The notes: generated by a model not told the origin, from the letters alone. A stretch of 64,000 nucleotides of DNA from an uncultured bacterium (GCA_964637655.1 CAZWUZ010000001.1:599-64598); one strand, 5' to 3'; positions 26,881 to 54,829 are shown, counted from the first letter of the stretch. Numbers and translations are program-made.

Positions 26881-26897
26881 GTTCCACCTCGCCTGCG

Positions 26898-26929: not shown

Positions 26930-27023
26930 CGCCCCCCCCTGTCGGCACTGTTCTACGCGCCGCGGCGGCGCGACGTTGGCCACCGTATCTCGTGGTATTG
27001 ATCCAAATGTGCAGTCCAGCTAT

Positions 27024-27548: not shown

Positions 27549-27728
27549 GATTCATCCCGCCCATAATGGCGTATGAATGTCAGAGATGCAATTCCGGTTT
27601 GGTCACGCGTATTCATGCCATCACCTTTATGCCACCGATGAGCGTTCTTCGTTGAGCCGCACTGGCAGCGATGCGCAGTAGCGCGGCTGGTTTTCATCGG
27701 ATTTTCATCCTGACACCACTGCTAATTT

Positions 27729-28184: not shown

Positions 28185-28230
28185 CTATTCGCGCCCGCAG
28201 CGGTGCGATGCTGGCCATTGTGTGCTCCAT

Positions 28231-37634: not shown

Positions 37635-38084
37635 TTACGACCAGCGCCGCAAGGTCAGGCGGATAGTGCCGTCCGCCGCCTTTTCCTCATTGACCGTGCC
37701 GTAGCCCTTGTTGCCCATTTCCGCGGTAATGCGCTGGTAGGCATACTGCTGCACGATGCGGCCAACCATCTCGCGGCCCAGCGCCTCGAGTTCGCGCGCC
37801 GACTTGCCCTTACCATCGATGCGCAATGACAGGTTGCCGCGCCCGTCGCGCCGCAGCGCCACAGTCATATCGCCATTGACGAAGGTTTTACTCTCGCCGC
37901 GGCCGACCGCAGCCGCCAGCTCGGCATTCTTCTCAAGCGCCACTTCAACGCATGTCGTTTCAGCCAGTGGCGCACTTTCCGTCTCGCGATAGCCGTATTC
38001 ACTGAGTGCAGCCGCCGCCGCCGCGGCAACCAGCGGCCAGGCCGCACTGATGAGAATCGGGGTGATGGCAATGATGACGCTCAT
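37635..38084 (-). CDS. DUF1257 (Ycf35-like) protein (ORF to 38162)
   Basis: [38 protein letters not shown] overlap with the AAA+ gene stop. Confidence 0.5.
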   Translation of the reverse strand: MSVIIAITPILISAAWPLVAAAAAAALSEYGYRETESAPLAETTCVEVALEKNAELAAAVGRGESKTFVNGDMTVALRRDGRGNLSLRIDGKGKSARELEALGREMVGRIVQQYAYQRITAEMGNKGYGTVNEEKAADGTIRLTLRRWS

Positions 38085-39637
38085 AATTCCAGCCTCCGTC
38101 CACCCGCGCCGGCGGTCTGGGTCTCTCCGGTCGAGGCCGGACGCGCCCGGCCGGACGCCCATTGCCGGATGCCGTTGATGTCCTCGGCCATGGTCTTCGA
38201 CAGCGGCACCGTCTTGTGCAGCGCAGCAAGCAGCGCTTCGGTGTGCAGGTCGGTATTCTGGTCGTATACGTCATACAGCGCCGCGACAATGGCCTGTTCT
38301 ATTTCCGAACCGGAATAGCCTTCTGCCGCCGCGGCAAGGCGGGCGAGGTCGAATCTTCCCGGGTCCCGCCGACGTTTCGCGAGATGAATGGCGAAAATAT
38401 CCTGCCGCTCCGCACTGCCCGGCAGGTCGATGAAGAAAATTTCATCGAGCCGGCCCTTGCGCAACAGCTCGGGCGGCAGGGTGGTGACACTGTTCGCGGT
38501 CGCCACCACAAAGACCGGCGCGCTTTTTTCCTGCAACCAGGTGAGGAACGCACCCAGGACGCGCGCCGTGGTGCCGGCATCAGAAAACGACGACGATTGC
38601 GATCCGGCGAATGCCTTTTCAATTTCGTCCACCCACAACACCGCCGGCGCCACCGATTCTGCCACCGCGATAGCACGGCGAATATTAAGTTCCGTAGAAC
38701 CAACCAGCGACGAGAACATCTTGCCCATATCCCAGCGCAGCAGCGGCATCTGCCAATAGCCGGCAATGGCCTTGGCGCACAGCGACTTGCCGCAGCCCTG
38801 CACGCCCAGCAGCAGGATGCCGCGCGGGGCGGGCAGCCCGAATTCTCGCGCCTGCGCTGAATGTGCGGCCGTGCGCTTGCCCAGCCAGTGTTTCAACTCG
38901 TCGAGGCCACCCACCCCGTCGATACCGGCATCAGGGCACACGTATTCGAGCAGGCCCGATTTACGGATTACCTGTTCCTTTTCTGCGATGATCAGCCCGA
39001 CGCTGTCCGCGCCCAGGCGATGGTCGCGCACCAGCGTCTTGGCGAAGACATTCTCCGCCTCCTTGAGTGACAGGCCGAGCGCGGCATTAACCAGTTTTTC
39101 ACGGGCGGCGGCATCGAGTGACACCGTCACCTCGCCGCTCCCGCCCACTTCCGCGATGATGCGGTCGAGCAGTGCGGCCAGTTCTTCCGCGCGCGGCAGC
39201 CCGAATTCGACAATGGTGATGTCCTTGTCAAGCTCGCAGGGGATTTCCAGAACCGGTGAGACCAGCACCAGTGATTTGTACGAGGCTTTGAGGTGCGCCG
39301 CCGTCTCGCGCAATTTGCGCACGATACCCGGGTCGCGCAGGTAAGGATGGAAATCGAGGAACGCGAAGATGGCCGGTTCCTTGTGGTCAAGCACCGCGTC
39401 GAGTGCTGCCAGCGGATCGCGGGTATTCCCGCTGCCGCCGCGCGCTTGCACCGGGGCGTCCGCGGCAACGATGCCGCGGGTCACCGACCACAGAAGACAT
39501 TTCTTGCCGCGCGCCGACGCAATGCGCTGCAGCAAGGCAATAACCCGCTCCTCCTCCCACGACACCGCGTAGATAATGGGGTAGCGCGCCCGTAGCAGGA
39601 TGTCGAGTTCGCGCTCGATGTCGCCGATCGTGTTCAT
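38081..39637 (-). CDS. AAA+ ATPase, Ycf46-like
   Basis: N-terminus [15 protein letters not shown]; Walker [13 protein letters not shown]; Walker [12 protein letters not shown]. 518 aa. Confidence 0.75.
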
Positions 39638-40632
39638 CGCCTCGCCTCCGCCATGGGCTTGAGTATAGCAAATTCCGCCGCCGCCGACATCATCTCACCG
39701 CTAATGATCGGACAGACAATGCTGCCGTCGGCCCCGATCTGCAGCATGAGTTCGCCGCTCCTCCATGGCGGCGGGTTGGCCGCTGGCGGCTGCAATAGCG
39801 GCGGTTCCTCGCGCATGGCGACGCCCGGCAGCCCCGCGAACAGGGCACGCGCCGGACTGCCGCAGCAGTCTTCATGACCCGGCATGATAAGCAGACAGGC
39901 GATAACCGGCGCCTGCCCGGCCATCCAGCGCACATTCGTCATGAGCGTGGTCAGATAGTCGGGTGCGCCCGCGTGACGCAAGGCGCAATTGTCATTCCCG
40001 AACTTCACTGAGACCACGTAAGCATCCACCAGTCCCGTCAGCAGCGTCCGTGCGGCAGCATGCTCTTGCCCTTCGGTGTTCCAGACCAGCGGCAGCGTCG
40101 TCGGGACGGCGGCGAGGTAGGCAAGCGCGGCGGCCAGATTTACGGTCGGCGAGCCGCCAAGCAGGCCGATGCTGCGGGCGCCCGCAGCCGCAGCGGCAGC
40201 CGTGCGTCTGTTCAAGTCAACGGCGTCGCATAGGTCGCCACGCTCAGGGACGAGCACATGGTCGCGAGCCCAGCAGATTGCACAACGCAAACCACAACCG
40301 GTAAAAAACAGAGAGAATTGCGGAGCATAGGGCTCCTCGACCGCGTAGTTGAGCCCGGCATAAAACTGGCGTGCCACCGCGCCGGTGGCGCATCTGCCGC
40401 TTTCGCCTGTCAGCCGGTTGCAACCGCAGGCATGGCGGCACAACGTGCAGGCGGCGAGTTGCTGTTCCGCCGCGTCGGCGCGGCGGGCTAGTTCTCCGGG
40501 GGCGTCAGGCAGCGCGCTGCGCCGGGTCGGCACAGCAATGGCGGGCGGCATCCGGTCAGGCTCGCTGCAGGAGATACTGCCAGGCTTCGAGGTATTGTTC
40601 AATCGACGCATATCCTTTGCCGCAAGCCGCAC
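39634..40632 (-). CDS. radical SAM enzyme, PflX/activating-enzyme-like
   Basis: CTLCRHACGCNRLTGESGRCATG followed by GCGLRCAIC (CxxxCxxC). ATGA overlap with the AAA+ start. Confidence 0.6.
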   Translation of the reverse strand: MRLAAKDMRRLNNTSKPGSISCSEPDRMPPAIAVPTRRSALPDAPGELARRADAAEQQLAACTLCRHACGCNRLTGESGRCATGAVARQFYAGLNYAVEEPYAPQFSLFFTGCGLRCAICWARDHVLVPERGDLCDAVDLNRRTAAAAAAGARSIGLLGGSPTVNLAAALAYLAAVPTTLPLVWNTEGQEHAAARTLLTGLVDAYVVSVKFGNDNCALRHAGAPDYLTTLMTNVRWMAGQAPVIACLLIMPGHEDCCGSPARALFAGLPGVAMREEPPLLQPPAANPPPWRSGELMLQIGADGSIVCPIISGEMMSAAAEFAILKPMAEARR

Positions 40633-41526: not shown

Positions 41527-43068
41527 TCAGCGGGTCAGGTAGGAGCGGGCGAGGTCGTTGGCCGGGTCGAGTTCGCGTGCGGTCCGGAATGCCGCCATGG
41601 CCTTCTGCCGCTGTCCCATGTGATAGAGACAGACCCCGTACCAGGCAAAGGCCTCAGCATCATGCGGCGTCACGCGCGTGAGCCGGGCGAACATCGCGGC
41701 TGCCCGATCAAGTTCGTCGGTCTGGTAATAGCAGGCGGCGAGATTGAACAGCGCCACCGCATGCTCCGGTTCGCGCTGCAAGGCCTCTTCGTAGGCGCGT
41801 GCAGCCAGACGCGACTGCCCGGCCTGGAAAAACGCATAGGCGGAACGCAGCAGTTCCACGGTCGGCGTCGCTGGCGGGGGTGCGGTTGCCGGTACCGGCG
41901 ATTCCGCCATTTTCGTATCCGCTGCCGGCGGCGGCAGGGTCAGCATGGTCGTGGTCGGGGCAACCACCGGGGTGAGCGCTTCCCAGGGCGCCGGTGCTGC
42001 TGTCGCTGTCAGCGCCGCATCCGGTGTCGAAGCGTCCGACTTGCCGGCCGCCGGCACAGGTGCAGGCACAGATGCTGCAACCGGAGTCGGCAGCGGCGCT
42101 GTCGCCGGTACCATCACGGCCGGTGTCGCAACCGCGGTTGACGCCGCCGGCCGTGCCTGCCCGAAACAATAGCGCAGCGAGAGGCGATGCGCATCACCCA
42201 GGTCGCCATACGGCACGAAGGCATAATCCACATGGAATTCATCGTCGAGATTGACCCCGAAACCGCAGGTCAGTCCGCTCCCCGCATCGTTCTCGCCCGT
42301 ATAGCCGACCCGCAGCGCCAGCATGCGCACGATCTGCCATTCCATGCCGGCATTGAGGAAGACACGGTCGTCGCGCGGCACCACCAGATCGGTTGTCAGC
42401 AGCAGCGGCAGTTCCGGCAGGCGATAGGCGCCGCCGGCCAGCAGGGTCAGCGGCAGATTTTCACGGCGCGTCCCCGCCTGCAGCCGCGTCCCGAGATTGA
42501 GCAATGACACGCCGAGCGCCAGTCCGGGCACGGCGACGTCTGTCGCCTGCCAGCCGAGATCGACGGCAAACGCGTCGGCCTCGTACGCCGCCAGTTCCTC
42601 GCGGATGTACTTGAGGTTGACGCCCCAGGCGCCGAACTCCTCCTCCCGCCCGTAGCCGACCGTCACTGCGAGATCGCCCGCCTCCGTCCGTCCCAATCCG
42701 GTCACCGGCGCCTGCCCGTTGATCCGCGTGATATCCATGTCGCCGTAATCGAGCATGGTGACTGCCGCGCCGGCACGACCGCCATACACCTGCCCGTCAT
42801 GCACATAGGCCAGGTGGTTGTAGGTAATGTCATCAAACCACGGGGCGTGCACAAAGAGCGCCTCACCCTGCCGCAGCCGGCCCAGGCCCGCAGGATTCCA
42901 GTGCAGCGCGCCGGCATCGCGCGCCAAAGCAGTGTACGCTCCACCCAGTGCCGCGCCACGCGCCCCCGGAGCAATGAGCAGGAACGGTGCGGCGCTGCTT
43001 CCCGCCTCGTCCGCGCGCGCGGGGAGCGCCGCCAGCAGCAGCAGGCCGCAAAGCAGGAGGCGGCGCAT
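41527..43068 (-). CDS. FadL/PorV-family outer-membrane beta-barrel with C-terminal Pro-rich/TPR extension
   Basis: Signal peptide LLLCGLLLLAALPARA. Hatch motif GARGAALGGAYTALARDAGALHWNPAGLG contains NPA. Alternating beta-strand pattern. Starts 1 nt from the stop of the giant CTD protein. Confidence 0.55.
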   Translation of the reverse strand: MRRLLLCGLLLLAALPARADEAGSSAAPFLLIAPGARGAALGGAYTALARDAGALHWNPAGLGRLRQGEALFVHAPWFDDITYNHLAYVHDGQVYGGRAGAAVTMLDYGDMDITRINGQAPVTGLGRTEAGDLAVTVGYGREEEFGAWGVNLKYIREELAAYEADAFAVDLGWQATDVAVPGLALGVSLLNLGTRLQAGTRRENLPLTLLAGGAYRLPELPLLLTTDLVVPRDDRVFLNAGMEWQIVRMLALRVGYTGENDAGSGLTCGFGVNLDDEFHVDYAFVPYGDLGDAHRLSLRYCFGQARPAASTAVATPAVMVPATAPLPTPVAASVPAPVPAAGKSDASTPDAALTATAAPAPWEALTPVVAPTTTMLTLPPPAADTKMAESPVPATAPPPATPTVELLRSAYAFFQAGQSRLAARAYEEALQREPEHAVALFNLAACYYQTDELDRAAAMFARLTRVTPHDAEAFAWYGVCLYHMGQRQKAMAAFRTARELDPANDLARSYLTR

Positions 43069-46000
43069 CAGCGCACCACGATCACTTTCCGCGTCGCGGT
43101 TTCCGACCCGCTGCGCAGGAGGATGATGTAGACGCCGCTCGCGACGTCCTCGCCTGCCGTGTTGCGCACATCCCACTGCACCGCACCGGTCCCCTCAGGC
43201 ACGCTGATCCTGTCGATCAGGCGGCCGCGCACATCGTAGATGTCAACCTGCGTGCCGGGCACCAGGCCGTTGAGATAAATCCCCGACCCGTCCCCGGGAC
43301 TGCCGTACGGTATGCCATTGCCGGGATCGCCGTCGTGAGGCACGTACGGGTTCGGATAGACCACGGCATTGCGCAGGTCGGCTGCCGGCGCAGCGAAGCC
43401 CGCGCCCGGGAAAAGCCCGTAGATCGACAGGTGCGGCAATTGCACGATCAGCGTGCGTGCGTCCCAGTCGAACGTTGTCGTTCCCGCTTCCTGCCACGAG
43501 ACGCTCGTCTCGTCATAGGTATAAAAGCGCAGTTGTTCCGCCTGCGCGCGCGTCAGGCGGCCCGGGGCAAAGGTGTAGGTCAGCGTGAGCGTGCGGAAAC
43601 TCGCGGGCCTGCTCCCCAAATCGCGTCCCGCGCTGTCGCTCACTTCCAGGCCAAACACCGTGCTGAGGTACGCGGCATACTCACGCAGGCCGCGCCGTGT
43701 GAACGAGTCCGGATCGACGCGCCGGATACCGATACGCTGCCCCGTGTCAGCGCCGGCGAGTTCGATCTGCAGGCGCAACGTGTCGCCGTAATCGCCCGCC
43801 AACTGGCTGTAGACCGGGATATCAACCGCCATGCTCCCCCCCGAATCGGTGACCAGCAGAAACGTTGCCGTATCGTCGCGGGTTGTGCGCGCCAGCACGA
43901 CAAGCGTATCGGCAACTACCTGCGGCGCGTCGATGGGCGCGGTTTCGTCCACCGTGCCGTCCCCGGCCAGGTCGGTGGCGACCTGCAGGTCGACAGTCGG
44001 CAGTGCCTGCCAGCCGATCCCCGACAACGTCACCGCCGCTTGCGCCGGGAGCAGCAGCGGGTCGAGCCGCCGCACCACGCTCCCGGCCGGCGTGCTGCGT
44101 TCCAGTTCGAGCGTCAGCGTGTGCGTCTCGCCGGTACTGGCCAGCGCCAGCGCGGACGAATCGCCGAAGCCGACCGCCAGTTCCGACCCCGCCGGCGCGG
44201 CCGGATCGGTCAGACGGAACACCTGTTCCTCGTCGCCAAGCACCTGCCCGATCTGCCAGCGCACAACGCTGACACGTTCCGGGCGGAAGCGACACTCGGT
44301 TTCCGCGAAGACCAGCGTGTCGGCGCCCCCGCTGCTGGTCGCCGACAGCACGATAAACCGGTCCTGCCTGAACACCCGCCAGGTCGCCGGCTGCGTCGCC
44401 TCGAGCCGCGTCGTTCCACTGATACTGAACGGCTGCCGCCCGAAGACCAGCATCCCCGCCAGCACGGTATCGCCAGGTGCTGACGGCACATACAGCGGAA
44501 ACACGCTGTCGGATGCCGTCTGCAGCCGCGAATCGGCGTAGGTGGCCGCCACCTGCCCGTCGAGCAGCAGCGTGAAGGACGCCACATTCGTGAACTGCAC
44601 ATAATCGACGTCGGGCCAGGCATCGAGGTAGGCGGTCGGGATGCGCGGTCGCGTGTCGGCCAGCCGGATGGGCGGCAGGAGCAGCGAACTGCTGCCGCCT
44701 GACAGCGTCCCCCACGGACTGTTGAGGTAACTCCACGTGCCGCCGGTCAGATTGAAATTGAAAACCCGCGCCTCGTCGCCCGGCAGGTTGTTCTCGTAGA
44801 CATAAACGAGGTAGTTTTCCGCCGCGGTATCCGCCGCGCGACAGACCTTGTACGGCACCACGGAATGGTTGACCCCGCTGAAGAACTCGAGTTCCGGATA
44901 GGCACTGCTGTCCGTGCCGCTCAGCGCCGCGCACAAACGCGTGAAGGTCGTGCGCAGCGGCGGCGGCGACGCCCAGTGCGCATAGCGGTAGGCGACGAAT
45001 TCGCTCGTCCCGTACTGGAAGAGATGGAATGCGTTGATGAGGTTGAGCGACGCGGTGGTGCGGCCCGCCGCCCCGGTGAATGCTGCGCCTCCCGGCACGG
45101 GCGTATCGCCGTTGAACAGGCGCAGCGCGCTCAGCGAGAAGCCGAAACACGAGCCGGCAAAACTGTGCGGCAGCGCGCCATAGAACGCATCGGCGGACGG
45201 CCGGTGCCGCCCGTCCGGATATTCCACCTGGTCGGCACCGAACGCCATGCGGTAAACCGTCCAGTCGACCACGCCGCCGCTGTAGTTGGCGAATGCCCAG
45301 CCGTCAACGGGAGGCGTGAATCCGTGCGCATACGCAGTTGTTACCATCTCCGCGGAAACACCCACATTGTTGCCCGGGACCGAGTCCGCCGCCGTCAACA
45401 CCGCCAGTATGCGATAGGGAACGCCAAAAGCCCAGGTGTGCGGCACGCTGACCGTTGCGCTCAGGGCAACCTCGCCTTCCGCCGCCACTGCCAGCACCGG
45501 CTGCATGACGGTCGTAATCACCGTATCACCGGCATCCGGCTGCGTGTCAGCAGAGAGCGAGAAGGTGACTGTCACCGGTCCAGTGAACGGCTGGCTGCCG
45601 ACATTGCGGAGCGTCGCGGTAAACGTCGCGTCCATGCCGAAGGCCAGCAGTGCGGGTGTTGCCGTCACTGCTGCCACGATCAGGTCTGTGCGCGCGTAGC
45701 CATCGTAGCGGTTGTAACCGTTGACACAGAGCGTTTCGCTCAGCCACGACTCGTTTTCCCAGACGCGCCCGTCAGCACTGTGCGTGTCGAACGCTGTCAC
45801 CCGGTAATAGTACGTCGTCAGCCGGTTGATCCCGGTATCCACATAGGTCGTGCCATCGGTCGTCAGCACCTGATGCTGGTGCCAGCCGGTATCGTCGCTG
45901 ATGCCCGTGCGGTACACCCGGTAGGTGGCACGACTGAACGTCCCGCCCGCCTCTTCGTCCGTGGTGACTGCCGCCCAGGAAATAGTGCAACTCGAGTCAG

Positions 46001-49000
46001 AGACGACAACCGCCAGGCCGGCAGGTGCCGCGGGCGCGATGCTGTCGGCCGCAGCCGCGGTATCGACCGTTGCGCCGCGGAACGGCACCAGCCGGTAACT
46101 TTCGCTGCCCGGGCCATGGATCAGCGCGGCGATAGCACCGGCATGATCGGTACCCCAGTAATTCCGGCTGATATCGAGTTGCGGCTGCAGTGCCACCCAG
46201 GCACCGGAATCGGGATGCAGCGTGCCCGGGCGGAGATTATTACGGCGCACTGTCGCCGGCGACAGCAGCCGCAGGGCGTAGCCGGCGCATGCATCGACGT
46301 CGTTGCCGGTGATGACCGCGTTGTTCGACCCGGAAACCGAAATGCCGTCACCGCTGCTGCCGCGGACCAGGTTGCGCGTGATGCGGGCATCGTGCGCATT
46401 GGTCCTGATTTCGATGCCGGTGCTGTCGTTGCCATTGATGCGGTTGTCGGCAAGGTTGCAGCCAGTCGCATATTCGCACCGTATTCCTGCCTGCCCGTTG
46501 TCCACCAGCCGGTTGTCACTGATCTCGCTCCGGTGGGCATACGCCCCAACCCAGATGCCGCACTCCTGATTGTCCGCGGCATAATTGCCGCGCAGCACAT
46601 TATCCTCTGCACTGCTCAGCACATACCCCGAACGGTTGGTGGCATAACTGGCGTTGCCGGTGAGCAGGTTGCGATGCGATCCTTCGTACAGCGCAAAACT
46701 CCCGGCATTGAGCGTATGCGAGCAACTGATGTTGTCGCGCAGGATATTGTCACAGGCCCCGCTCAGGTAGAAGCCGCCTTCGCCGTTCTGCCAGCAGTAA
46801 TTGCGTTCCGCCGTGTTGCCGTGCGAATTGTGGAAGCAGATCGCCAGCATCGTGTTCTGCCGCACCTCGTTGCCGCGCAGCAGGTTGCTGTCCGACCCCG
46901 CTTCGAGATACAGTGCCGACTGGTTGTTGCTGAACAGCGTGCTGTCGATGCTGTTGCCGCAGGCGGCAGTCAGGCGCGCGCCCCAGAGCGTGTTTCCTGT
47001 GAGCCGGGCGCTCTCGATACGGCTGTTGCGTACGCGCGTAAAACGCACCCCTGTCACGCAGCCGTCAACCTGCACCTCGCGCAGACAGATGCCGTCAAGA
47101 TCGGTCGCGGTGATGCCCTCGCTGTTCCCGGCCCCGCGCACCGCGATGCCGTGCACGGTCACCCCGCCGGCAAGGCCGAGCACCGTGCCGGAACCTGACG
47201 CCAGCGCCGCCCACGTGTCCGGCCCGCCACCGGTGTCGGCACCGGCCTGCGCCCGGTACGAACGCAGCGTCATGCCGGTAGCAAGCGTGATCCCGCCGGC
47301 ATACGCGCCACCGTCACTCCGGCTGTAGACGATCACCGTGTCGTAGCCGTTGCCCGGGTTCAGCGCTGCAATGGCCGCGGCGGGCGACCCGAACGCCGTC
47401 AGCGGATCACCACCGCCCGGCACGCTGCTGTCGCCGCGGTCGCTGACATAGACCGTCATCGCGCCGGTATCCGCAAATACCGCCACCGAGAATCTGCGCG
47501 CCGCCGCGGTCAGCGTATCGCCCTGCAGGTTTTCCGCGATGACCCGCCAGTAGTATGTGCCGGGGAGCAGCGTCGATGCCGCCGTCGCCTGCTGCGCCGT
47601 CACCGTGCGGCTGTCGAGCAGGAGCGCGAAGGACGCTGCCTCGCTCACCTGCAGGGTGTACGTGTCACCCTGCCCGTTCCAGCGATAGACCGGCTGCGAC
47701 GGGGCAATGGTCATTTCCGCCGCCGGATACACGAGCGTCAGCGTCAGCGTCGTATCGAGCGTCAGCGTCTGCACCGGTGTCGTCTCGACTGCATTGCCCC
47801 GGGTGCTGATGACGCGCCAGTAGCAGGTGCCGGACGCGTAGTTCGCGACCGGCGTGTATGTCATGGCGGCGGTCTGCACGCTGTCCGTCAGCAGCGCGAA
47901 CGATGGCGTCGTGCTGACTTCCAGCCGGCTGCTGTCGCCGTTGGTTGTCCAGCGGAACGCCGGGGTCAGATCGCTCGAACGCATGCCGTCAGCCGGACTG
48001 ACTGCGGTCACGGTCAGTGCCGCCCCGGCCACGACCGAATACCACGACTCGTTCGGCCATGGCGCATGCGCATCGACTGCCGTCACCCGGTAGTACCAGT
48101 TGCCGCCGGGCCGAACGTCGAGATACGATGTTTCGCCCGACCCGGGCGTCGCTATCGGCTCACCCCAGTAATCCGTATCAGCCGTCGACGCGCAATAGAG
48201 CCGGTAGCCGGCAAGCCCGGTGAGCGCGCCACCGCCTTCCTCGTCGGTGGCAGTTGCAAGCCAGTTGATGACATACGTATCATCCTGCTGCCGCACCGTG
48301 ATGCCGTCCGGAACCGCAGGCGCTATCGTATCCGCGCCGGCGGACGTGTCGACGGGACCGAGGCGGAACGGCAGGACAGGCACGCGACTGTCAGCGCCCG
48401 CGCCCATGGCGGCGATGCTGCCTGAGTCCGTCGTCCCCCACCAGTTGCGCTGCAACGACAGCAGGGCGGTATCGGTCAGTCCGGTCACCGCGACTGCGGT
48501 CGCCGCCCCGCTGACCGCGATATTGTTTTTGGCGAAGGTGCAGGAGGCAACCGAGTCGGCACTGAATGCCGTTCCCTGGCTCATCTGCACTTCGTTCGCC
48601 GTCAGCAGATTGCCTGCGGTCAGCAGTTTGAATCCGAAAACCGTGTTGCCGGCAAGCCGGTTGCGCTGCAGGCGGTTCTCGCCGCCATCCTGCTCGACCC
48701 GTATGCCGGTATACTGGCCGGAACAGTCATTCCCCTCAATCCGGTTGCGCCGTGCATCCCACAAGTAGATGCCGTCGCCTGTACCGAGACCGTCCAGGTT
48801 GCTGTTGCACTGACAGTTGCTGACAACGTTGTCCGCCGAGGAACTGAGATTGATCCCGTAATACAGGTTCCCGTTCGCGCACGTCCGTTCGACCAGGCAA
48901 TGCGTCGCTGACAGGAGATACAGGCCGAACACGTTGCCGCTGAAATCACAGGCCCGGACCGTCACGCTGTCCGCCGTGCTGAGCATCATCCCCCAGTAAC

Positions 49001-49628
49001 TCTGCTGCACGCGCACATTGTCGAACAGGCAGTTGCTCACCATCTCCATGAACAGGCCACGCCAGATGTTCCGCACCGTGAGGTTGCGCACGGTGAGCCC
49101 GCTCCGGTTGCTCGCGGCAATACCCGGGGTCCACACCGGTAATCCGGTGAAATTGAACTTGCTCACGAAATCGATGATTGTGGTGGCGGAGTCGGCGCCG
49201 ATCAGCCAGACATTGTTGTCGGTAATCGTGATAGTGCTGGTTTCGGTATACGTGCCGGCATCGACGTACAGCGTGTCGCCCGGATTGAGCAGCGGGACAA
49301 CGCTCAGCAGCGTGCGTTTCGGGGTGGCGGGGGTAATGCCATTGTTGGCGCTGCTGCCGATTGCCGTGCACCAGACGTCACCCGCCGTCGCGGCGTCGTT
49401 GACGTACCAGACCTGCGCCTGCAGGAGCGTGGGTATCAGCACCAGCGACAGGACAAGGCCCAGCCGCACGACGCTCCTGACCTGCGGCAACATGCCCGGC
49501 CATGCCCTCGTTCGCACCGGCGTCTCCCCCGCCTGTTCCTTCAGTTCAGTTCCGCTGACCCGTTGGCCGCGGATGCCGCGCCTGCCGACCCGCGGACTGC
49601 AATCACCCGCGTTCCCGCCCGCTGCCAT
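43068..49628 (-). CDS. giant secreted parallel beta-helix repeat protein with T9SS-type (FlgD-Ig-like) C-terminal sorting domain; likely start at the signal-peptide Met near 49496
   Basis: 2186-aa ORF with many PbH1-like repeats (NxxxxNxxxGIxL). C-terminus VYPNPYVP...SGVYIILLRSGSETATRKVIVVR is CTD-like. Confidence 0.7.
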   Translation of the reverse strand: MAAGGNAGDCSPRVGRRGIRGQRVSGTELKEQAGETPVRTRAWPGMLPQVRSVVRLGLVLSLVLIPTLLQAQVWYVNDAATAGDVWCTAIGSSANNGITPATPKRTLLSVVPLLNPGDTLYVDAGTYTETSTITITDNNVWLIGADSATTIIDFVSKFNFTGLPVWTPGIAASNRSGLTVRNLTVRNIWRGLFMEMVSNCLFDNVRVQQSYWGMMLSTADSVTVRACDFSGNVFGLYLLSATHCLVERTCANGNLYYGINLSSSADNVVSNCQCNSNLDGLGTGDGIYLWDARRNRIEGNDCSGQYTGIRVEQDGGENRLQRNRLAGNTVFGFKLLTAGNLLTANEVQMSQGTAFSADSVASCTFAKNNIAVSGAATAVAVTGLTDTALLSLQRNWWGTTDSGSIAAMGAGADSRVPVLPFRLGPVDTSAGADTIAPAVPDGITVRQQDDTYVINWLATATDEEGGGALTGLAGYRLYCASTADTDYWGEPIATPGSGETSYLDVRPGGNWYYRVTAVDAHAPWPNESWYSVVAGAALTVTAVSPADGMRSSDLTPAFRWTTNGDSSRLEVSTTPSFALLTDSVQTAAMTYTPVANYASGTCYWRVISTRGNAVETTPVQTLTLDTTLTLTLVYPAAEMTIAPSQPVYRWNGQGDTYTLQVSEAASFALLLDSRTVTAQQATAASTLLPGTYYWRVIAENLQGDTLTAAARRFSVAVFADTGAMTVYVSDRGDSSVPGGGDPLTAFGSPAAAIAALNPGNGYDTVIVYSRSDGGAYAGGITLATGMTLRSYRAQAGADTGGGPDTWAALASGSGTVLGLAGGVTVHGIAVRGAGNSEGITATDLDGICLREVQVDGCVTGVRFTRVRNSRIESARLTGNTLWGARLTAACGNSIDSTLFSNNQSALYLEAGSDSNLLRGNEVRQNTMLAICFHNSHGNTAERNYCWQNGEGGFYLSGACDNILRDNISCSHTLNAGSFALYEGSHRNLLTGNASYATNRSGYVLSSAEDNVLRGNYAADNQECGIWVGAYAHRSEISDNRLVDNGQAGIRCEYATGCNLADNRINGNDSTGIEIRTNAHDARITRNLVRGSSGDGISVSGSNNAVITGNDVDACAGYALRLLSPATVRRNNLRPGTLHPDSGAWVALQPQLDISRNYWGTDHAGAIAALIHGPGSESYRLVPFRGATVDTAAAADSIAPAAPAGLAVVVSDSSCTISWAAVTTDEEAGGTFSRATYRVYRTGISDDTGWHQHQVLTTDGTTYVDTGINRLTTYYYRVTAFDTHSADGRVWENESWLSETLCVNGYNRYDGYARTDLIVAAVTATPALLAFGMDATFTATLRNVGSQPFTGPVTVTFSLSADTQPDAGDTVITTVMQPVLAVAAEGEVALSATVSVPHTWAFGVPYRILAVLTAADSVPGNNVGVSAEMVTTAYAHGFTPPVDGWAFANYSGGVVDWTVYRMAFGADQVEYPDGRHRPSADAFYGALPHSFAGSCFGFSLSALRLFNGDTPVPGGAAFTGAAGRTTASLNLINAFHLFQYGTSEFVAYRYAHWASPPPLRTTFTRLCAALSGTDSSAYPELEFFSGVNHSVVPYKVCRAADTAAENYLVYVYENNLPGDEARVFNFNLTGGTWSYLNSPWGTLSGGSSSLLLPPIRLADTRPRIPTAYLDAWPDVDYVQFTNVASFTLLLDGQVAATYADSRLQTASDSVFPLYVPSAPGDTVLAGMLVFGRQPFSISGTTRLEATQPATWRVFRQDRFIVLSATSSGGADTLVFAETECRFRPERVSVVRWQIGQVLGDEEQVFRLTDPAAPAGSELAVGFGDSSALALASTGETHTLTLELERSTPAGSVVRRLDPLLLPAQAAVTLSGIGWQALPTVDLQVATDLAGDGTVDETAPIDAPQVVADTLVVLARTTRDDTATFLLVTDSGGSMAVDIPVYSQLAGDYGDTLRLQIELAGADTGQRIGIRRVDPDSFTRRGLREYAAYLSTVFGLEVSDSAGRDLGSRPASFRTLTLTYTFAPGRLTRAQAEQLRFYTYDETSVSWQEAGTTTFDWDARTLIVQLPHLSIYGLFPGAGFAAPAADLRNAVVYPNPYVPHDGDPGNGIPYGSPGDGSGIYLNGLVPGTQVDIYDVRGRLIDRISVPEGTGAVQWDVRNTAGEDVASGVYIILLRSGSETATRKVIVVR

Positions 49629-49639
49629 CCACTACGTTG

Positions 49640-49668
49640 AATATACCACGTTTTCCTATGTATGTCAA
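49640..49668 (-). promoter_or_regulatory. sigma70-like promoter TTGACA-N17-TATATT with conserved core TTGACATACATAG
   Basis: Fourth copy of the 13-bp core, directly upstream of the giant gene. Confidence 0.45.
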
Positions 49669-49676
49669 GGTATTAT

Positions 49677-51326
49677 TCACCAGGTGACGCGCCACGGCTC
49701 GGCATAGCAGCGCGGTGGGAACAGTTTGGGCATATCGGGATAGGCGAGTTGCACTTCGCGACGCGCCATATCGACCGTAAGCGGCGTGCCGGTCAGCGGA
49801 TTGCGGTATTCCGGTTGCCCGGCCAGCGTCGCGGGCGCGCCATCGCGCAGGGCGAGGGCCAACAGCAGCGCCCGCGCCTTCCCCCGCAGCAGTTCACGCG
49901 CACGCACCGGGAGAAAGGAATACCTTATCCTGTGTGTGCGCATCAGGTTGAACAGCATGTTTGTCGGCATATCCCAGAACCCGGCCGTGAACACCCTGTC
50001 TCCGCGCTCCTCCTCCTGGCGTTCCAGCCGCTGGTACTCGGCAACCGCTTCCGGGAAGGGGAGCGCCAGCAACCTGCGGATGGCATGCAACTGCCGCTCA
50101 TGCTCGATTTCCACACGTACCGGGTCAAAGAGCAGCAACTGCGTGGCCTTCGCGCTTATGTCCAGCGCCCCTTCTTCTGCCCATTCCGCCGAACTGTCGG
50201 TAAGGTATGCGTATTGGAAATAGTCATCACGGTCATGCAAGAGTGCCGCATGATCGGCAACGCTGTCGCTTTTCGCCATCAACCGTTCCAGCACCTCACG
50301 CAGGCGCGTCTGATCGCCATGCCGTGCCGCCGCCAGCCAGCGGCGCGCTGCTTCCATCCCCAACTCATCGATTGAATGAGCGTAAAGCATCTGATTGTAT
50401 TTGTCAGCCCCGACACGCATGGCATCTGCCAGCGCGAAACACTGCATCGCCTGTTCGTACGCCGCAACGTTGCGGCCGTCCGCGATCAGCACACGCGCTT
50501 TCGTCGTCAGCAGGTGGCGCACATAATTGAAACCGTACCATTCCGACCGGCGGGCGCCCCACTCGGGCAGTACGTATCCCGGCACCGTCATCCGTTGCAT
50601 GATGTCAGCGTACGTATCCTGCCAGTCGGCATGACGGGCGCGCAGTACCGCCAGCGGAATGCTCTCTGCTTCGCATTCCTTGAACACGGTATCGTTGCGC
50701 ACCTGATACCCGATATCCGCAAGACGCGCGTGCAGTTCACTGGTGCGTGCCTGCGCCTCGACTGTCGGCGGAGCGATCGTGCGGAACAACCCCTCGGGCT
50801 GCGGCTGCGGGCCAAGCGCCTGATATGCCCACCAGCCGAAGCCAACGATGCCAACCGGAATCATGCTGACCGTGCATCCGTAGAACAGCGCGTTGAACAC
50901 ACGAGCGCGCGGCCCGCTTTTCGCAAACCATGCTGCCCGATGGCGCAGGTAGAGCGGAACCGTGATGATGCCCGCGGCAACCGTCACACCGGCAGTCCAG
51001 TACGAGCCCGCCATCAGGTCAAGCATGGTAATCAGCATACCCGGCATATAGAATATAAACAGTCCCCCGGGCGGTATGATCTGCCTGCGGCTGTTCCATA
51101 GTCGCGGCAGCACCCGATCGATCACGCTCATAGTGAGTATCCCGGTGAACACAATCCAGAGCAGCACCTGCCGGTCTTCAACCAGCGCGAACGCCAGCAG
51201 AAAGACACCTATGACCGCCAGCATCGACGCTGCATCCGCATACTCGCGCCAATGCTTCACCATATGCTGTTTTGCCCCGGTTAGCATGCCCATCTTCCTG
51301 CGCAGGTCATTCCCGCCGCCTCCCAT
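49677..51326 (-). CDS. membrane protein with large helical cytoplasmic or periplasmic domain (ORF to 51419)
   Basis: N-terminal 5-6 TM helices followed by an alpha-helical region. Confidence 0.45.
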   Translation of the reverse strand: MGGGGNDLRRKMGMLTGAKQHMVKHWREYADAASMLAVIGVFLLAFALVEDRQVLLWIVFTGILTMSVIDRVLPRLWNSRRQIIPPGGLFIFYMPGMLITMLDLMAGSYWTAGVTVAAGIITVPLYLRHRAAWFAKSGPRARVFNALFYGCTVSMIPVGIVGFGWWAYQALGPQPQPEGLFRTIAPPTVEAQARTSELHARLADIGYQVRNDTVFKECEAESIPLAVLRARHADWQDTYADIMQRMTVPGYVLPEWGARRSEWYGFNYVRHLLTTKARVLIADGRNVAAYEQAMQCFALADAMRVGADKYNQMLYAHSIDELGMEAARRWLAAARHGDQTRLREVLERLMAKSDSVADHAALLHDRDDYFQYAYLTDSSAEWAEEGALDISAKATQLLLFDPVRVEIEHERQLHAIRRLLALPFPEAVAEYQRLERQEEERGDRVFTAGFWDMPTNMLFNLMRTHRIRYSFLPVRARELLRGKARALLLALALRDGAPATLAGQPEYRNPLTGTPLTVDMARREVQLAYPDMPKLFPPRCYAEPWRVTW

Positions 51327-51328
51327 CA

Positions 51329-52045
51329 TCAGACGATATAGTGATACAGGTAGATGCGGCCTGTCCGCTTGTTGACGTATACGCGAACTCCTCGCGATTC
51401 GCGAACAGTGCAGCACCACACGTTATAATCCTCCGCTGGCCCGGGCAAAAACCATGGCAGCGATGTGTTATTTTCAAACCGCCAGTTCGATGTTGTGGTT
51501 TCAGCGCGGTTGTCCGACAGAAATTGTGCGGTCCATTCCGGCGGCGCCTGAATTTCAAAATGATATATATGCTCTTCCGTCCAGTGCGCTGACCCCCAGT
51601 AGCGCGAATGGCATACCGTTATCTCCGGCGGCTGTTCCTCCTGGAATGCACGATACCAGTTGCGCGGGTCATCATCCCAGGTGCCCGCACCAATATAGAA
51701 ACTCTCAGTGAATAGAACGATAGTAAGCAGCAGTATTCCCAGCGCAATTCCGGGCAGCGCTACGAGGTTCAGCACGAGCGCAACGCGCGCACTGCACCTG
51801 CGGTCCTTGGCCACAATCAGGAACATGGTGAGTGCCGCCATAATCACCCAGAACAGCCAGGGCGAGGCATACGCCACTCGTCCAAAATACGTGAGTTCGC
51901 CACCTGCCTTTTCGTGGAGCGCCTGCATCGGCAGCACAATGTAAAGCGTCCATGCCAGTCCGCCCCCCATGGCGAGTATGTTGATAGTGCTCAGTATCCT
52001 GTTCACCATGTGCAACCTGCCGCGCACACCGCCGGCCTCGCTCAC
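51329..52045 (-). CDS. polytopic membrane protein (238 aa)
   Basis: Six TM helices; 4-nt overlap with the upstream gene. Confidence 0.45.
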   Translation of the reverse strand: MSEAGGVRGRLHMVNRILSTINILAMGGGLAWTLYIVLPMQALHEKAGGELTYFGRVAYASPWLFWVIMAALTMFLIVAKDRRCSARVALVLNLVALPGIALGILLLTIVLFTESFYIGAGTWDDDPRNWYRAFQEEQPPEITVCHSRYWGSAHWTEEHIYHFEIQAPPEWTAQFLSDNRAETTTSNWRFENNTSLPWFLPGPAEDYNVWCCTVRESRGVRVYVNKRTGRIYLYHYIV

Positions 52046-54217: not shown

Positions 54218-54829
54218 TCACGGGATGCGCTCCGGCGTGTCGCTGCCTGACACCAGGCGAATGGTCCCCGGCGTGTAGTCGCGGTAGAGTTTACCACGGC
54301 CATGCACCGTTTGCAGTGTGTAGGCAGCACCATCAGTCGTGTACGTGTACTGATTGTCCCACGGATCGGGAGTAATGGTGGCCAGATAGGGGCCGGACCA
54401 GCCGGGGGCATTGTCGGAATAGAGTTGCAGCAGCGTGGCTGGATACGTGCCTGTCGAAACATCGGTGCGGTACTGTTGCAGTTCTTTTGCGTAGTTGGTC
54501 AGGTCAGCCTCCGCGCCAATACATTTCATACTGTCGATGGTGATGAACAACTGTTGGAAAAAGAATGCCAGCCCGTACCATGCCACCACAACTGCCAGCG
54601 CGGCAAACAGCACACCCCTTCTTTTCTGCCGTTCGCGCCATGCCGAATATCCCGTGGTCAGCAACAGCACGAACATGAGGGGTGGCAGTCCCATGGCGCC
54701 CAGAAACCAGATGTGGCGCAATTGCACCGGAATGGCTTGCTGGATTCCGTACGAAGTTGTGCAGACCGCCAGCGTCACAGCCACTGCCGCGAGCCATAGC
54801 CATATGCCGTATGCTTTGCCGTCGCGCAC
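54218..54829 (-). CDS. GspG-like pilin-domain membrane protein (polytopic N-terminus)
   Basis: LQQYRTDVSTGTYPATLLQLYSDNAPGWSGPYLATITPDPWDNQYTYTTDGAAYTL. Three N-terminal TM helices; ends SDTPERIP. Confidence 0.6.
   Translation of the reverse strand: MRDGKAYGIWLWLAAVAVTLAVCTTSYGIQQAIPVQLRHIWFLGAMGLPPLMFVLLLTTGYSAWRERQKRRGVLFAALAVVVAWYGLAFFFQQLFITIDSMKCIGAEADLTNYAKELQQYRTDVSTGTYPATLLQLYSDNAPGWSGPYLATITPDPWDNQYTYTTDGAAYTLQTVHGRGKLYRDYTPGTIRLVSGSDTPERIP

What the first reader, a model, noticed from the sequence alone, without database searches (positions are those of the whole stretch)
41527..49668. 2186-aa parallel beta-helix surface protein with T9SS-type C-terminal domain followed by a FadL/PorV-like barrel that carries a TPR tail
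The giant ORF is built of PbH1-type repeats and ends in a ~80-aa domain (VYPNP...KVIVVR). That domain matches the Por-secretion/FlgD-Ig-like sorting pattern. The next gene starts 1 nt after its stop and encodes an NPA-hatch FadL/PorV-family barrel. Unusually, this barrel carries a ~150-aa Pro-rich plus TPR C-terminal extension. Cargo and shuttle may be co-expressed from the conserved promoter. Together with the high GC, this hints at an FCB-group-like organism such as Gemmatimonadota or Rhodothermota, though I cannot determine the taxon.
Basis: partly seen in the sequence, partly recalled or inferred. Interest (0 to 1): 0.55.

Follow-up and report, generated by a model that had tools for sequence, protein, structure and literature searches.

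The report
Giant surface protein with its own PorV-like anchor
A 2,100-residue secreted beta-helix protein carries a type IX-style C-terminal tag. The next gene encodes a PorV/PorQ-like outer-membrane barrel with a periplasmic TPR tail. The same tag-plus-barrel gene pair recurs in many little-studied phyla, mostly Elusimicrobia, for which type IX secretion has not been described.

Summary
The 2186-codon ORF (43068-49628, minus strand; likely start at 49493) has two PbH1/NosD beta-helix blocks. It ends in a ~100-aa domain that passes TIGR04183 and is most like the uncleaved C-terminal domains (CTDs) of PorZ and PorU.

The next gene (41527-43068) overlaps the giant's stop codon by one base (TGATG). 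It encodes a 14-stranded barrel with an NPAG hatch. The barrel passes the PorV/PorQ family model, and its nearest solved relative by sequence and by fold is PorV, not FadL/TodX. It fails the PorV and PorQ equivalog cut-offs.

The TPR tail is not unusual. About a fifth of the fetched relatives have one, and Treponema pallidum FadL-like proteins do too.

The main result is comparative. In 56 of 81 related loci the barrel directly follows a large gene ending in the same CTD. Half of the loci are labelled Elusimicrobia. The passenger domains are unrelated between loci.

I read this as a dedicated cargo/anchor pair that works like PorZ-PorQ, PorU-PorV or SprB-SprF.

No T9SS core gene lies in the 64 kb, and the rest of the genome could not be checked. 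The taxon is undetermined, and the guess of Gemmatimonadota or Rhodothermota is not supported.

The parts
49640..49668 (-). Sigma-70-type promoter-like site, TTGACA-17 nt-(TG)TATATT. It lies just after the stop of the upstream gene and about 150 nt before the likely start of the giant gene.
   Evidence: 11 of 12 positions, extended -10 TG. (2 such sites in 64 kb, 0.01 expected). Function is inferred, not shown.
43068..49628 (-). Giant cargo gene. The ORF is 2186 aa. The likely start is M46 at 49493, giving a 2141-aa precursor with a Sec-type signal peptide.
   Evidence: (NCBI's call for the identical sequence starts at 49493). GC3 is 0.81.
48339..49331 (-). Right-handed parallel beta-helix block 1 (about residues 100-430). 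It is followed by an fn3-like module and two ~100-aa repeats (residues about 440-760).
   Evidence: NosD best stretch 167-329; TIGR03805 111-300; TIGR03804 repeats. The repeat architecture was read from the translation.
46059..47231 (-). Right-handed parallel beta-helix block 2 (about residues 800-1190). A weak fn3 match follows it at about residues 1200-1290.
   Evidence: Beta_helix best stretch 976-1111; TIGR04247 812-1044 at 109.7 bits, below the cut-off of 300, so it is not NosD itself. fn3 at E 0.0067.
43389..45641 (-). Orphan passenger region (residues 1330-2080). No family, no detectable homologue and no confident fold.
   Evidence: no Pfam hit passing its cut-off; no homologue at E <= 0.001; single-sequence AF2, mean pLDDT 39.
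43071..43430 (-). C-terminal domain (CTD, last ~100-120 aa, ...VVYPNP...ASGVYIILL...KVIVVR). It is T9SS type A-like and closest to the retained CTDs of PorZ and PorU.
   Evidence: TIGR04183 36.2 bits (cut-off 23); NF052228 PorZ C-terminus 49.6 bits. The family profile scores 4.9e-17 against PorZ 5m11 and 1.3e-8 against PorU 6za2. It is the only CTD in the window.
41527..43068 (-). Barrel gene (513 aa). Its ATG overlaps the cargo's TGA by one base.
   Evidence: The identical protein is in NCBI (P0001). It is the only such barrel in the window.
42163..43011 (-). N-terminal hatch with the NPAG motif, plus a 14-stranded beta-barrel (residues 20-302) of the PorV/PorQ family.
   Evidence: NF033709 165.4 bits (cut-off 90). 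AF2 pLDDT above 90 with 14 long strands. Best fold matches are PorV 8gl6_F and 6h3i_F. Invariant N58 and G61.
41869..42162 (-). Pro/Ala/Thr-rich low-complexity linker (residues 303-400), predicted disordered and presumably periplasmic.
   Evidence: sequence. (pLDDT below 50 for residues 340-396).
41530..41868 (-). Three tetratricopeptide repeats (residues 401-513, seven helices) forming the periplasmic tail.
   Evidence: TPR_2, TPR_19 and TPR_16 at E 1e-13 to 1e-12. AF2 pLDDT above 90. TM 0.86-0.93 (normalised to the target) to designed three-repeat TPR proteins.

Best explanation
The locus is a two-gene surface-display module made of a cargo and its own outer-membrane partner.

**Proposed mechanism.**
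1. The giant protein is exported by Sec. This is inferred from its signal-peptide-like N-terminus.
2. Its passenger part consists of two beta-helix/fn3 units plus an orphan region. It probably binds or cleaves a polysaccharide or another surface.
3. Its C-terminal Ig-like domain (CTD) is not a generic secretion tag. It is the handle by which the protein is captured and held on the cell surface by the 14-stranded PorV/PorQ-like barrel encoded immediately downstream. The two genes are translationally coupled.
4. This is the way PorQ holds PorZ, PorV holds PorU and SprF holds SprB.
5. A flexible Pro-rich linker and three TPRs hang from the barrel into the periplasm. There they tether the barrel to another envelope component. 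Relatives put OmpA-type or LysM-like peptidoglycan-binding domains in the same position, and in Bacteroidota the separate TPR/OmpA protein PorE does this for PorP.

**Shown here.** Domain homologies, the fold of the barrel and tail, the gene overlap, conservation of the CTD-gene/barrel-gene pair across many lineages with unrelated passengers, and co-diversification of CTD and barrel.

**Inferred.** Physical CTD-barrel binding, surface exposure, retention of the CTD, and the partner of the TPR tail.

**Unknown.** How the passenger crosses the outer membrane: through a SprA/Sov-type translocon encoded elsewhere, or by another route.
For: **Domain and fold evidence.**
- The CTD passes TIGR04183. 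All 51 aligned CTDs of the family hit the PorZ C-terminus, 48 hit TIGR04183 and 33 hit PorU.
- The profile's best PDB matches are PorZ (4.9e-17) and PorU (1.3e-8), ahead of two cleavable cargo CTDs (3e-4 and 6e-4).
- PorU and PorZ keep their CTDs and are anchored by PorV and PorQ (PMC10947112, PMC5562754).
- The barrel passes NF033709. Its nearest solved protein is PorV, by sequence profile and by predicted fold.

**Gene-pair evidence.**
- The start of the barrel gene overlaps the cargo's stop by one base.
- In 56 of 81 related loci a CTD-bearing ORF ends directly upstream of the barrel on the same strand. The median distance from that ORF's stop to the start of the barrel match is 40 nt. The CTD lies at the extreme C-terminus in 51 of 59 pairs. 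28 of the 59 upstream ORFs are at least 1000 aa.
- Two metagenome relatives show the same layout: a 3582-aa Kelch protein, and an ORF with a weak FlgD_ig hit. A third follows an 8954-aa protein.
- Only the CTD is shared between the cargos. No other neighbour is conserved with the pair.
- Several genomes carry two or three pairs.

**Co-diversification.** CTD identity and barrel identity are correlated (Spearman 0.22; 0 of 999 permutations reach it). The nearest barrel is among the top three CTD neighbours in 26 of 51 loci.

**Tails.** 30 of 81 barrels carry periplasmic tails. With the window's own tail added, 18 of these 31 are TPR, 2 are OmpA and 2 are fn3. One more reads as LysM-like by eye.
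Against: - No binding, localisation or expression data exist for any member of this module.
- The barrel-CTD correlation is confounded by shared ancestry.
- 24 of the 81 relatives have no adjacent CTD gene, so the barrel family is not always paired. These are the rumen Endomicrobia, the Gemmatimonadota, the Latescibacterota and the Poribacteria.
- A 14-stranded plugged barrel cannot itself pass a folded 2,000-residue beta-helix, so the model lacks a translocation step.
- The better score of the PorZ model over TIGR04183 may partly reflect its longer C-terminal coverage.
- The 80 genome loci were found with two peptide patterns taken from this clade, so the sample is biased towards close relatives.
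Confidence: 0.6

Rival explanations
1. This is a canonical type IX secretion cargo next to the organism's general PorV shuttle. The organism would have a full T9SS (PorK/L/M/N, SprA/Sov, PorU). This barrel would serve all type A cargos, and the CTD would be cleaved by PorU.
For: - The CTD passes TIGR04183 and the barrel passes the PorV/PorQ family model.
- PorV is the best PDB match.
- In Bacteroidota porU, itself a CTD protein, sits next to porV (my own knowledge; PG0026 and PG27/LptO are named in PMC5562754).
Against: - The barrel fails the PorV equivalog cut-off (61.5 bits against 250).
- No T9SS core family was hit by the ~36 window ORFs scanned (28 with NCBIfam, 8 more with Pfam only).
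- Relatives are one barrel per cargo gene, with several pairs per genome. They lie mostly in phyla for which T9SS is not described. Reviews place T9SS in Bacteroidota or the FCB group (PMC11205867, PMC11611037).
- The CTDs resemble the retained CTDs of PorZ and PorU more than cleaved cargo CTDs.
- Only one CTD protein occurs in 64 kb.
Confidence: 0.15
2. The module is a cognate pair, but the barrel acts mainly as a specialised shuttle that collects its cargo from a SprA-like translocon, as PorP/SprF-like proteins do for type B CTDs. On this reading the module is an accessory of a T9SS-like machine that is more widely distributed than currently recognised.
For: - It rests on the same pairing evidence as the best explanation.
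- In F. johnsoniae, type B substrates are often genetically linked to their PorP/SprF-like shuttles and need them for secretion (PMC12618676, PMC9143113).
- PorQ has been proposed to collect PorZ from Sov (PMC10947112).
Against: No translocon gene is seen in the window or as a conserved neighbour in 81 loci. T9SS core genes have not been reported for Elusimicrobia in the searched literature.
Confidence: 0.2
3. The barrel is a FadL-type importer of hydrophobic compounds with a TPR tail, as proposed for the Treponema pallidum FadL-like proteins. Its position after the giant gene would be incidental.
For: - An NPA-type hatch motif is present.
- Pfam UPF0164, the treponemal family, is passed at 32.4 bits against a cut-off of 21.4.
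- Toluene_X gives a weak hit.
- TPR tails are described for TP0548, TP0859 and TP0865 (PMC8407342).
Against: - Toluene_X is below its threshold (20.9 bits against 29.7).
- The profile and the fold favour PorV by many orders of magnitude.
- The pairing with CTD genes in 56 of 81 loci, together with co-diversification, is not expected for a nutrient channel.
Confidence: 0.05

Closest known systems
PorZ-PorQ and PorU-PorV sub-complexes of the Porphyromonas gingivalis T9SS attachment complex
   Same: - A surface protein with an uncleaved C-terminal Ig-like CTD is held on the cell by a FadL-fold barrel of the PorV/PorQ family (PMC5562754, PMC10947112).
- The CTD family here is closest to the PorZ and PorU CTDs.
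- The barrel is closest to PorQ and PorV.
   Different: - The barrel fails both equivalog cut-offs.
- The passenger is a beta-helix protein, not a sortase or an A-LPS carrier.
- The pair is encoded as adjacent, overlapping genes and recurs with many different passengers.
- The barrel carries a periplasmic TPR tail.
- The relatives lie mostly outside Bacteroidota.
SprB-SprF and other type B CTD / PorP-like cognate pairs of Flavobacterium johnsoniae, and the PorP-PorE complex
   Same: - A giant adhesin-like cargo gene sits next to the gene for its own outer-membrane barrel, which is needed for secretion and anchoring (PMC9143113, PMC12618676).
- PorP-like barrels are further tied to the cell wall by PorE, which I recall from my own knowledge as a TPR/OmpA protein. 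That is the role I infer for the fused tails here.
   Different: - The CTD here is type A/PorZ-like, not type B. TIGR04131 was hit by only 2 of 51 CTDs.
- The barrel is of the PorV/PorQ family, not PorP/SprF.
- The tether is fused to the barrel rather than being a separate protein.
Treponema pallidum FadL-like outer-membrane proteins TP0548, TP0859 and TP0865 (Pfam UPF0164)
   Same: - They are 14-stranded barrels with an NPA or NAA hatch and a C-terminal, presumably periplasmic, alpha-helical TPR-containing extension (PMC8407342).
- The window barrel passes the UPF0164 threshold.
   Different: - The Pfam match covers only the hatch region (profile positions 44-111 of 325).
- The treponemal proteins are interpreted as nutrient importers, and no paired CTD cargo is described for them.
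- Sequence relatedness to the window protein beyond the hatch was not tested.
PorV of Flavobacterium johnsoniae in the SprA translocon complex (PDB 6h3i, 8gl6)
   Same: It is the best solved match by sequence profile (3.8e-36) and by fold (E 1e-15, TM 0.64-0.68 normalised to the target).
   Different: - Sequence identity is only 18-19%.
- PorV is a general shuttle for all type A CTDs (PMC12618676) and has no TPR tail.

Membership tests
T9SS type A sorting domain (TIGR04183 / Pfam Por_Secre_tail) | HMM score at or above the curated cut-off, with the domain at the extreme C-terminus | tested here: met
   TIGR04183 scores 32.1 bits in the whole protein and 36.2 bits as an isolated piece, against a cut-off of 23. 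The match covers residues 2115-2184 of 2186. Pfam Por_Secre_tail is below its cut-off (18.3 and 24.7 bits against 27).
T9SS type A sorting domain (TIGR04183 / Pfam Por_Secre_tail) | N-terminal Sec signal peptide on the same protein | tested here: inconclusive
   No signal-peptide predictor was available. M46-Q72 (MLPQVRSVVRLGLVLSLVLIPTLLQAQ) reads as n-, h- and c-regions. NCBI's gene call starts there.
Type IX secretion system (as a system) | Genome encodes the core machine: PorK/GldK, PorL/GldL, PorM/GldM, PorN/GldN, SprA/Sov and PorU | not testable with these tools
   Only 64 kb are available. The window ORFs scanned (about 36 of 51) hit no T9SS core family.
PorV/PorQ family (NF033709) | Score at or above the subfamily cut-off over the whole barrel | tested here: met
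   165.4 bits against a cut-off of 90, covering residues 25-300 on profile positions 2-324 of 326.
PorV/PorQ family (NF033709) | 14-stranded FadL-fold barrel with an N-terminal hatch, structurally closest to PorV | tested here: met
   The AF2 model has barrel pLDDT above 90 and 14 long strands. The Foldseek top hits are PorV 8gl6_F and 6h3i_F at E 1e-15, ahead of TodX and FadL at 4e-8 to 9e-8.
PorV ortholog (NF033710 equivalog) | Score at or above 250 bits | tested here: not met
   61.5 bits.
PorQ ortholog (NF033711 equivalog) | Score at or above 220 bits | tested here: not met
   98.3 bits. This is the best of the T9SS equivalogs but is below the cut-off.
FadL/TodX transporters (Pfam Toluene_X PF03349) | Score at or above the gathering threshold of 29.7 | tested here: not met
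   20.9 bits, covering the hatch only. The family profile scores 3.8e-4 against TodX and 3.8e-36 against PorV.
UPF0164 (PF03687, treponemal FadL-like OMPs) | Score at or above the gathering threshold of 21.4 | tested here: met
   32.4 bits, but only residues 30-97 on profile positions 44-111 of 325, so coverage is partial. Many homologues carry the same precomputed hit.
Right-handed parallel beta-helix proteins (PF13229, TIGR03804) | Repeated PbH1-type coils above the cut-off | tested here: met
   Beta_helix scores 162.6 bits in 6 stretches. TIGR03804 scores 90.5 bits in 5 stretches.
NosD (TIGR04247) | Score at or above 300 bits | tested here: not met
   109.7 bits. It shares the fold with NosD but is not NosD.
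Cognate CTD-cargo / PorV-like barrel gene pair (the module proposed here) | A CTD-bearing gene ends directly upstream of the barrel gene on the same strand | tested here: met
   In the window the genes overlap by one base. The same layout occurs in 56 of 81 related loci and in the metagenome loci L001, L082 and L083.

The most novel reading that the evidence does not exclude
The CTD-cargo/PorV-like-barrel pair is a self-contained, widespread surface-anchoring system of Elusimicrobiota, Aerophobetes, Desantisbacteria, Firestonebacteria and allied lineages. It would work without the PorKLMN/SprA machine. It may represent the ancestral core from which the T9SS attachment complex (PorU-V, PorZ-Q) evolved. 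By extension, the 'FadL-like' UPF0164 outer-membrane proteins of Treponema pallidum, some with the same TPR tail, may be protein anchors or shuttles rather than fatty-acid channels.
Probability: 0.25. Interest if true: 0.8.

Novelty: new variant of a known kind. Interest (0 to 1): 0.6.

Why it matters
Type IX secretion and its CTD/PorV logic are treated as a speciality of Bacteroidota and the FCB group (PMC11205867, PMC11611037).

- **Reach of the module.** A type A/PorZ-like CTD and a PorV/PorQ-like barrel appear here as a portable two-gene unit with many unrelated giant passengers. Half of the fetched relatives carry Elusimicrobia labels. The barrel family has about 10,900 clusters at E <= 1e-30 in a 1.8-billion-protein library.
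- **Consequence if T9SS core genes are absent from those genomes.** There would then be an undescribed route for displaying very large proteins on diderm surfaces. If the core genes are present, the known range of T9SS is much too narrow.
- **Practical uses.** The pairing predicts which barrel serves which cargo. It offers an explanation for barrel-TPR/OmpA fusions as envelope tethers. It also suggests re-examining the assumed nutrient-import role of the syphilis-vaccine candidates of the UPF0164 family.

I found no paper describing this module. That search covers only the open-access library.

Tried and rejected
1. **Genome scan with the 25-sequence barrel alignment.** I repeated it with the 3 closest sequences, which biases the sample towards this clade.
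2. **Contig look-ups for the window's own barrel (P0001) and for P0003.** Neither is on record.
3. **Names for window proteins by exact look-up.** None came back, but the look-up fixed the giant's called start.
4. **Taxon from a PilT-like marker.** The best hits are 52-54% identical and spread over Planctomycetes, Armatimonadetes and Desulfobacterales, so the result is uninformative.
5. **Function of the giant's residues 1330-2080.**
   - No Pfam hit passes its cut-off.
   - No homologue was found. The full-length self protein is not a cluster representative, so even self was not found.
   - Single-sequence AF2 gave a mean pLDDT of 39, which is unusable. I ran no fold search on it.
6. **AF2 of the CTD with the 51-sequence alignment.** A CTD-barrel complex prediction was therefore not possible.
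7. **The afdb50 fold library.** It was not available.
8. **Conserved neighbours of the pair.**
   - The window's neighbours have no counterpart in the 81 loci.
   - Recurrent neighbours among the loci are clade-specific housekeeping genes or two-component system genes, not secretion genes.
9. **RNA features.** Rfam and tRNA scans of the window found nothing.
10. **NosD (copper/N2O reductase maturation) reading of the giant.** I considered it and rejected it because the score is far below the equivalog cut-off.
11. **Two-partner or autotransporter-like self-export through the barrel.** I considered it and rejected it because a plugged 14-stranded barrel is too narrow. This rests on inference from the model.

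Full report
**1.

- *Giant gene.* The minus strand carries a 2186-codon ORF at 43068-49628. NCBI's own call for the identical sequence starts at M46 (49493, 2141 aa), where a signal-peptide-like segment begins.
- *Beta-helix content.* The protein scores 7.4e-48 on Pfam Beta_helix and 3e-46 on NosD, and 90.5 bits on the TIGR03804 parallel beta-helix repeat.
- *Architecture.* Read from the translation, it is a duplicated unit of beta-helix, a short 'NWWGT/NYWGT' linker and an fn3-like domain. The beta-helix blocks lie at about residues 100-430 and 800-1190. After them comes a ~750-residue region with no family, no homologue and no confident fold. A C-terminal domain follows.
- *Not NosD.* TIGR04247 scores 109.7 bits against a cut-off of 300.
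- *Promoter-like site.* A near-consensus sigma-70-type site (TTGACA-17-TG-TATATT) sits at 49668-49640, right after the upstream gene's stop. It is one of only two such sites in the window.

**2. The C-terminal domain**

- The last ~100 residues (…VVYPNP…ASGVYIILL…KVIVVR) pass TIGR04183, the T9SS type A sorting domain. The score is 32.1 bits in context and 36.2 bits alone, against a cut-off of 23.
- In Pfam the isolated piece just reaches FlgD_ig (27.4 bits, cut-off 27) and misses Por_Secre_tail (24.7 bits, cut-off 27).
- The strongest match is to the C-terminal ~90 positions of the PorZ model (49.6 bits).
- A profile of 51 homologous CTDs finds PorZ (5m11, residues 659-758, E 4.9e-17) and PorU (6za2, E 1.3e-8) first in the PDB. 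Two cleavable cargo CTDs solved in the SprA-PorV complex follow at 3e-4 and 6e-4.
- PorZ and PorU are the two T9SS proteins whose CTDs are not cleaved. They are held on the surface by PorQ and PorV (PMC10947112, PMC5562754).

**3. The barrel**

- *Gene junction.* The next gene (41527-43068, 513 aa) starts with an ATG that shares its A with the giant's TGA. The genes therefore overlap by one base and are probably translationally coupled.
- *Family scores.* It scores 165.4 bits on NF033709 (PorV/PorQ family, cut-off 90). It falls below the equivalog cut-offs of PorQ (98.3 against 220) and PorV (61.5 against 250), and below Pfam Toluene_X/FadL (20.9 against 29.7).
- *Predicted structure.* With a 25-sequence alignment, AlphaFold2 gives a confident model (mean pLDDT 82.6; barrel and TPR above 90). 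It shows an N-terminal hatch with the invariant NPAG motif and 14 long strands (residues 68-302). A disordered Pro/Ala/Thr-rich linker (about 303-400) and seven helices forming three TPRs (403-512) follow.
- *Nearest solved proteins.* Foldseek ranks PorV first (8gl6_F and 6h3i_F, E 1e-15, target TM 0.64-0.68). TodX and FadL follow at 4e-8 to 9e-8. The family profile scores 3.8e-36 on PorV and 3.8e-4 on TodX.

**4. The pair is a conserved module**

- *Homologues.* They reach 41-54% identity at best and are mostly unnamed. The named ones are 'PorV/PorQ family protein' from Elusimicrobia, Firestonebacteria and Eisenbacteria.
- *Genome scan.* A scan of one genome per species returned 393 relatives, of which I hold the best 80.
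  - 40 are labelled Elusimicrobia or Endomicrobia and 8 Aerophobetes.
  - 3 each are labelled Desantisbacteria and Firestonebacteria.
  - A few are labelled Poribacteria, Lindowbacteria, Margulisiibacteriota or Goldiibacteriota, and 14 are unclassified.
  - Only 5 carry FCB-group labels.
- *Adjacency.* In 56 of 81 loci (the 80 plus L001), an ORF ending in a domain homologous to the window's CTD stops directly upstream of the barrel on the same strand.
  - Counting every barrel gives 59 pairs, since three loci hold two barrels. Across these the median distance from the CTD ORF's stop to the barrel match is 40 nt.
  - The CTD lies at the very C-terminus in 51 of 59 pairs.
  - 28 upstream ORFs are at least 1000 aa and 10 are at least 2000 aa. 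Twenty are cut by the locus edge, at up to 3316 aa.
- *Metagenome relatives.* They agree: an 8954-aa protein plus a tiny CTD-only ORF before a PorV-TPR barrel (L001), a 3582-aa Kelch protein overlapping its barrel by 4 nt (L083), and an upstream ORF with a weak FlgD_ig hit (L082).
- *What is shared.* Only the CTD is shared between these cargos and the window's giant. No other neighbour travels with the pair.
- *Copies per genome.* Several assemblies contribute two or three pairs.
- *Co-diversification.* CTD and barrel identities are correlated (Spearman 0.22; 0 of 999 permutations reach it). The nearest barrel is among the three nearest CTDs in 26 of 51 loci, where about 3 are expected at random. 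Shared ancestry contributes to this, so it shows inheritance as a unit, not binding.
- *Window copy number.* The window holds exactly one CTD and one barrel.

**5. The TPR tail is ordinary for this family**

- Thirty of 81 barrels have at least 90 residues after the last strand. Adding the window's own tail gives 31, and 18 of those score as TPR, 2 as OmpA and 2 as fn3. One more reads as LysM-like by eye.
- In an exhaustive search of 1.84 billion cluster representatives, the family profile finds 10,941 proteins at E <= 1e-30. The profile included some tail columns, so the weaker tiers are inflated by TPR proteins. Of the 146 newly listed proteins among the best 150, 35 match the window's TPR tail directly.
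- Three Treponema pallidum FadL-like proteins (TP0548, TP0859, TP0865) were already described with a C-terminal periplasmic helical TPR extension (PMC8407342). The window barrel passes the threshold of the Pfam family UPF0164 (32.4 bits against 21.4, hatch region only). Proteome papers returned by a search for 'UPF0164' are all on T. pallidum, but the link between UPF0164 and those five proteins rests on my own knowledge.
- Peptidoglycan-binding domains occupy the same position in relatives. This suggests the tail is an envelope tether.

**6. Organism and T9SS**

- I scanned about 36 of the 51 ORFs I called in the window, which covers all of the larger ones. Twenty-eight went through NCBIfam, which holds the T9SS models, and eight more through Pfam only. 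None hit a T9SS core family.
- The window is otherwise rich in TPR proteins. It also has a PilT-like ATPase and GspG-like pseudopilins.
- The genome is not among the species representatives, since the best barrel identity is 40%. A PilT marker reaches only 52-54% identity, spread over unrelated phyla. The taxon is therefore undetermined.
- The ten closest modules are from Elusimicrobia-labelled MAGs, several of them high-GC groundwater bins, and one unclassified MAG.
- The Gemmatimonadota and Latescibacterota relatives lack the adjacent CTD gene. Two of the three (L012, L038) follow an ORF that reads as TPR-like.
- Whether the genome encodes SprA and PorKLMN could not be tested.

**7. Mechanism**

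- I propose a dedicated cargo/anchor pair. The Sec-exported giant is captured through its retained CTD by the co-translated barrel and displayed on the surface. The barrel's linker and TPR tail reach into the periplasm to bind a further envelope component.
- This works like PorZ-PorQ and PorU-PorV (PMC5562754). It also works like the genetically linked type B CTD/PorP-like pairs such as SprB-SprF, whose barrels can be tied to the wall through PorE (PMC9143113, PMC12618676).
- Homology, fold, gene coupling, conserved pairing and co-diversification are shown. Binding, surface exposure, CTD retention and the tail's partner are inferred.
- The outer-membrane translocation step is open.

**8. Novelty**

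- The components are known kinds. The new points are their arrangement as a type A/PorZ-like CTD with a private PorV/PorQ-like barrel, often tailed, and its distribution mostly outside the phyla credited with T9SS.
- I found no description of this arrangement in the searchable literature.
- I rate it a new variant of a known kind. The locus in this window is one typical member.

Noticed in passing
window 26150-26929 (minus strand): A probable toxin-antitoxin pair. A PIN-like ORF (26150-26632) overlaps an RHH/CopG-like ORF (26632-26880) by one base. Both were identified by eye from the translations. They lie directly behind the only other perfect TTGACA-N17-TATATT site in the window (26929-26901).
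   Followed up: partly
window 26000-28700: A low-GC island (GC 0.53, against about 0.62 elsewhere). It holds only small ORFs, which I did not scan against any family library. It may be recently acquired DNA.
   Followed up: no
window 22164-24872 and 28713-31463 (minus strand): Two ~900-aa proteins with the same architecture, probably paralogues: an N-terminal HAAS domain, a redoxin/AhpC-TSA-like thioredoxin fold and a long TPR array.
   Followed up: no
window 1-2585, 10269-12296 and 13269-16277 (minus strand): The window is unusually rich in TPR proteins. It holds two adjacent GYF_2+TPR proteins, a protein with a weak Wzy_C (O-antigen ligase) match (29.2 bits, below the 31.7 cut-off) plus TPR, and a 1002-aa TPR protein.
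   Followed up: no
window 34711-35793, 54218-54829, 58973-59596 and 62492-63238 (minus strand): A PilT-like ATPase (T2SSE, 4.8e-45) and three GspG/T2SSG-like pseudopilin ORFs. One of the pseudopilins lies just upstream of the block of orphan genes that precedes the giant.
   Followed up: partly
window 49677-54165 (minus strand): Three orphan ORFs (580, 238 and 707 aa) lie upstream of the giant on the same strand. They have no family hits passing a cut-off and no counterpart in any related locus. The promoter-like site separates them from the giant.
   Followed up: partly
window 38081-40632 (minus strand): A ~330-aa ORF with weak radical-SAM-type matches (Fer4_12 26.1 bits, above its cut-off; Radical_SAM 25.8 bits, below its cut-off) overlaps a CDC48/FtsH-like AAA ATPase (518 aa) by 4 nt. 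The pair lies downstream of the barrel and has weak similarity to the anti-phage ATPase IteA (76.8 bits, cut-off 510).
   Followed up: no
L001 1-12013: An 8954-aa CTD-bearing protein is followed by a 95-117-aa ORF that is almost only a CTD. A 670-aa PorV-TPR barrel, a TPR protein and an RND efflux set come next.
   Followed up: partly
L015, L017, L018, L024, L039, L079 (barrel C-termini): Related barrels carry other periplasmic tails. OmpA-type domains occur in L015 and L017 by my reading of the tails (Pfam confirms OmpA in 2 of the 31 tails) and a LysM-like segment in L018. L024, L039 and L079 share an unassigned ~150-aa domain.
   Followed up: partly
L022, L034, L040, L047, L049, L052, L057, L060, L062, L066, L070, L073, L074: A gut/rumen-type Endomicrobia/Elusimicrobia subgroup of the barrel family has no adjacent CTD gene. 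It sits in conserved housekeeping synteny with a KsgA-like methyltransferase, an HI0933-like flavoprotein and a kinase. Several members carry Lys/Gln/Thr-rich tails.
   Followed up: partly
window 1-64000: There is no tRNA gene and no Rfam family above threshold in 64 kb.
   Followed up: yes
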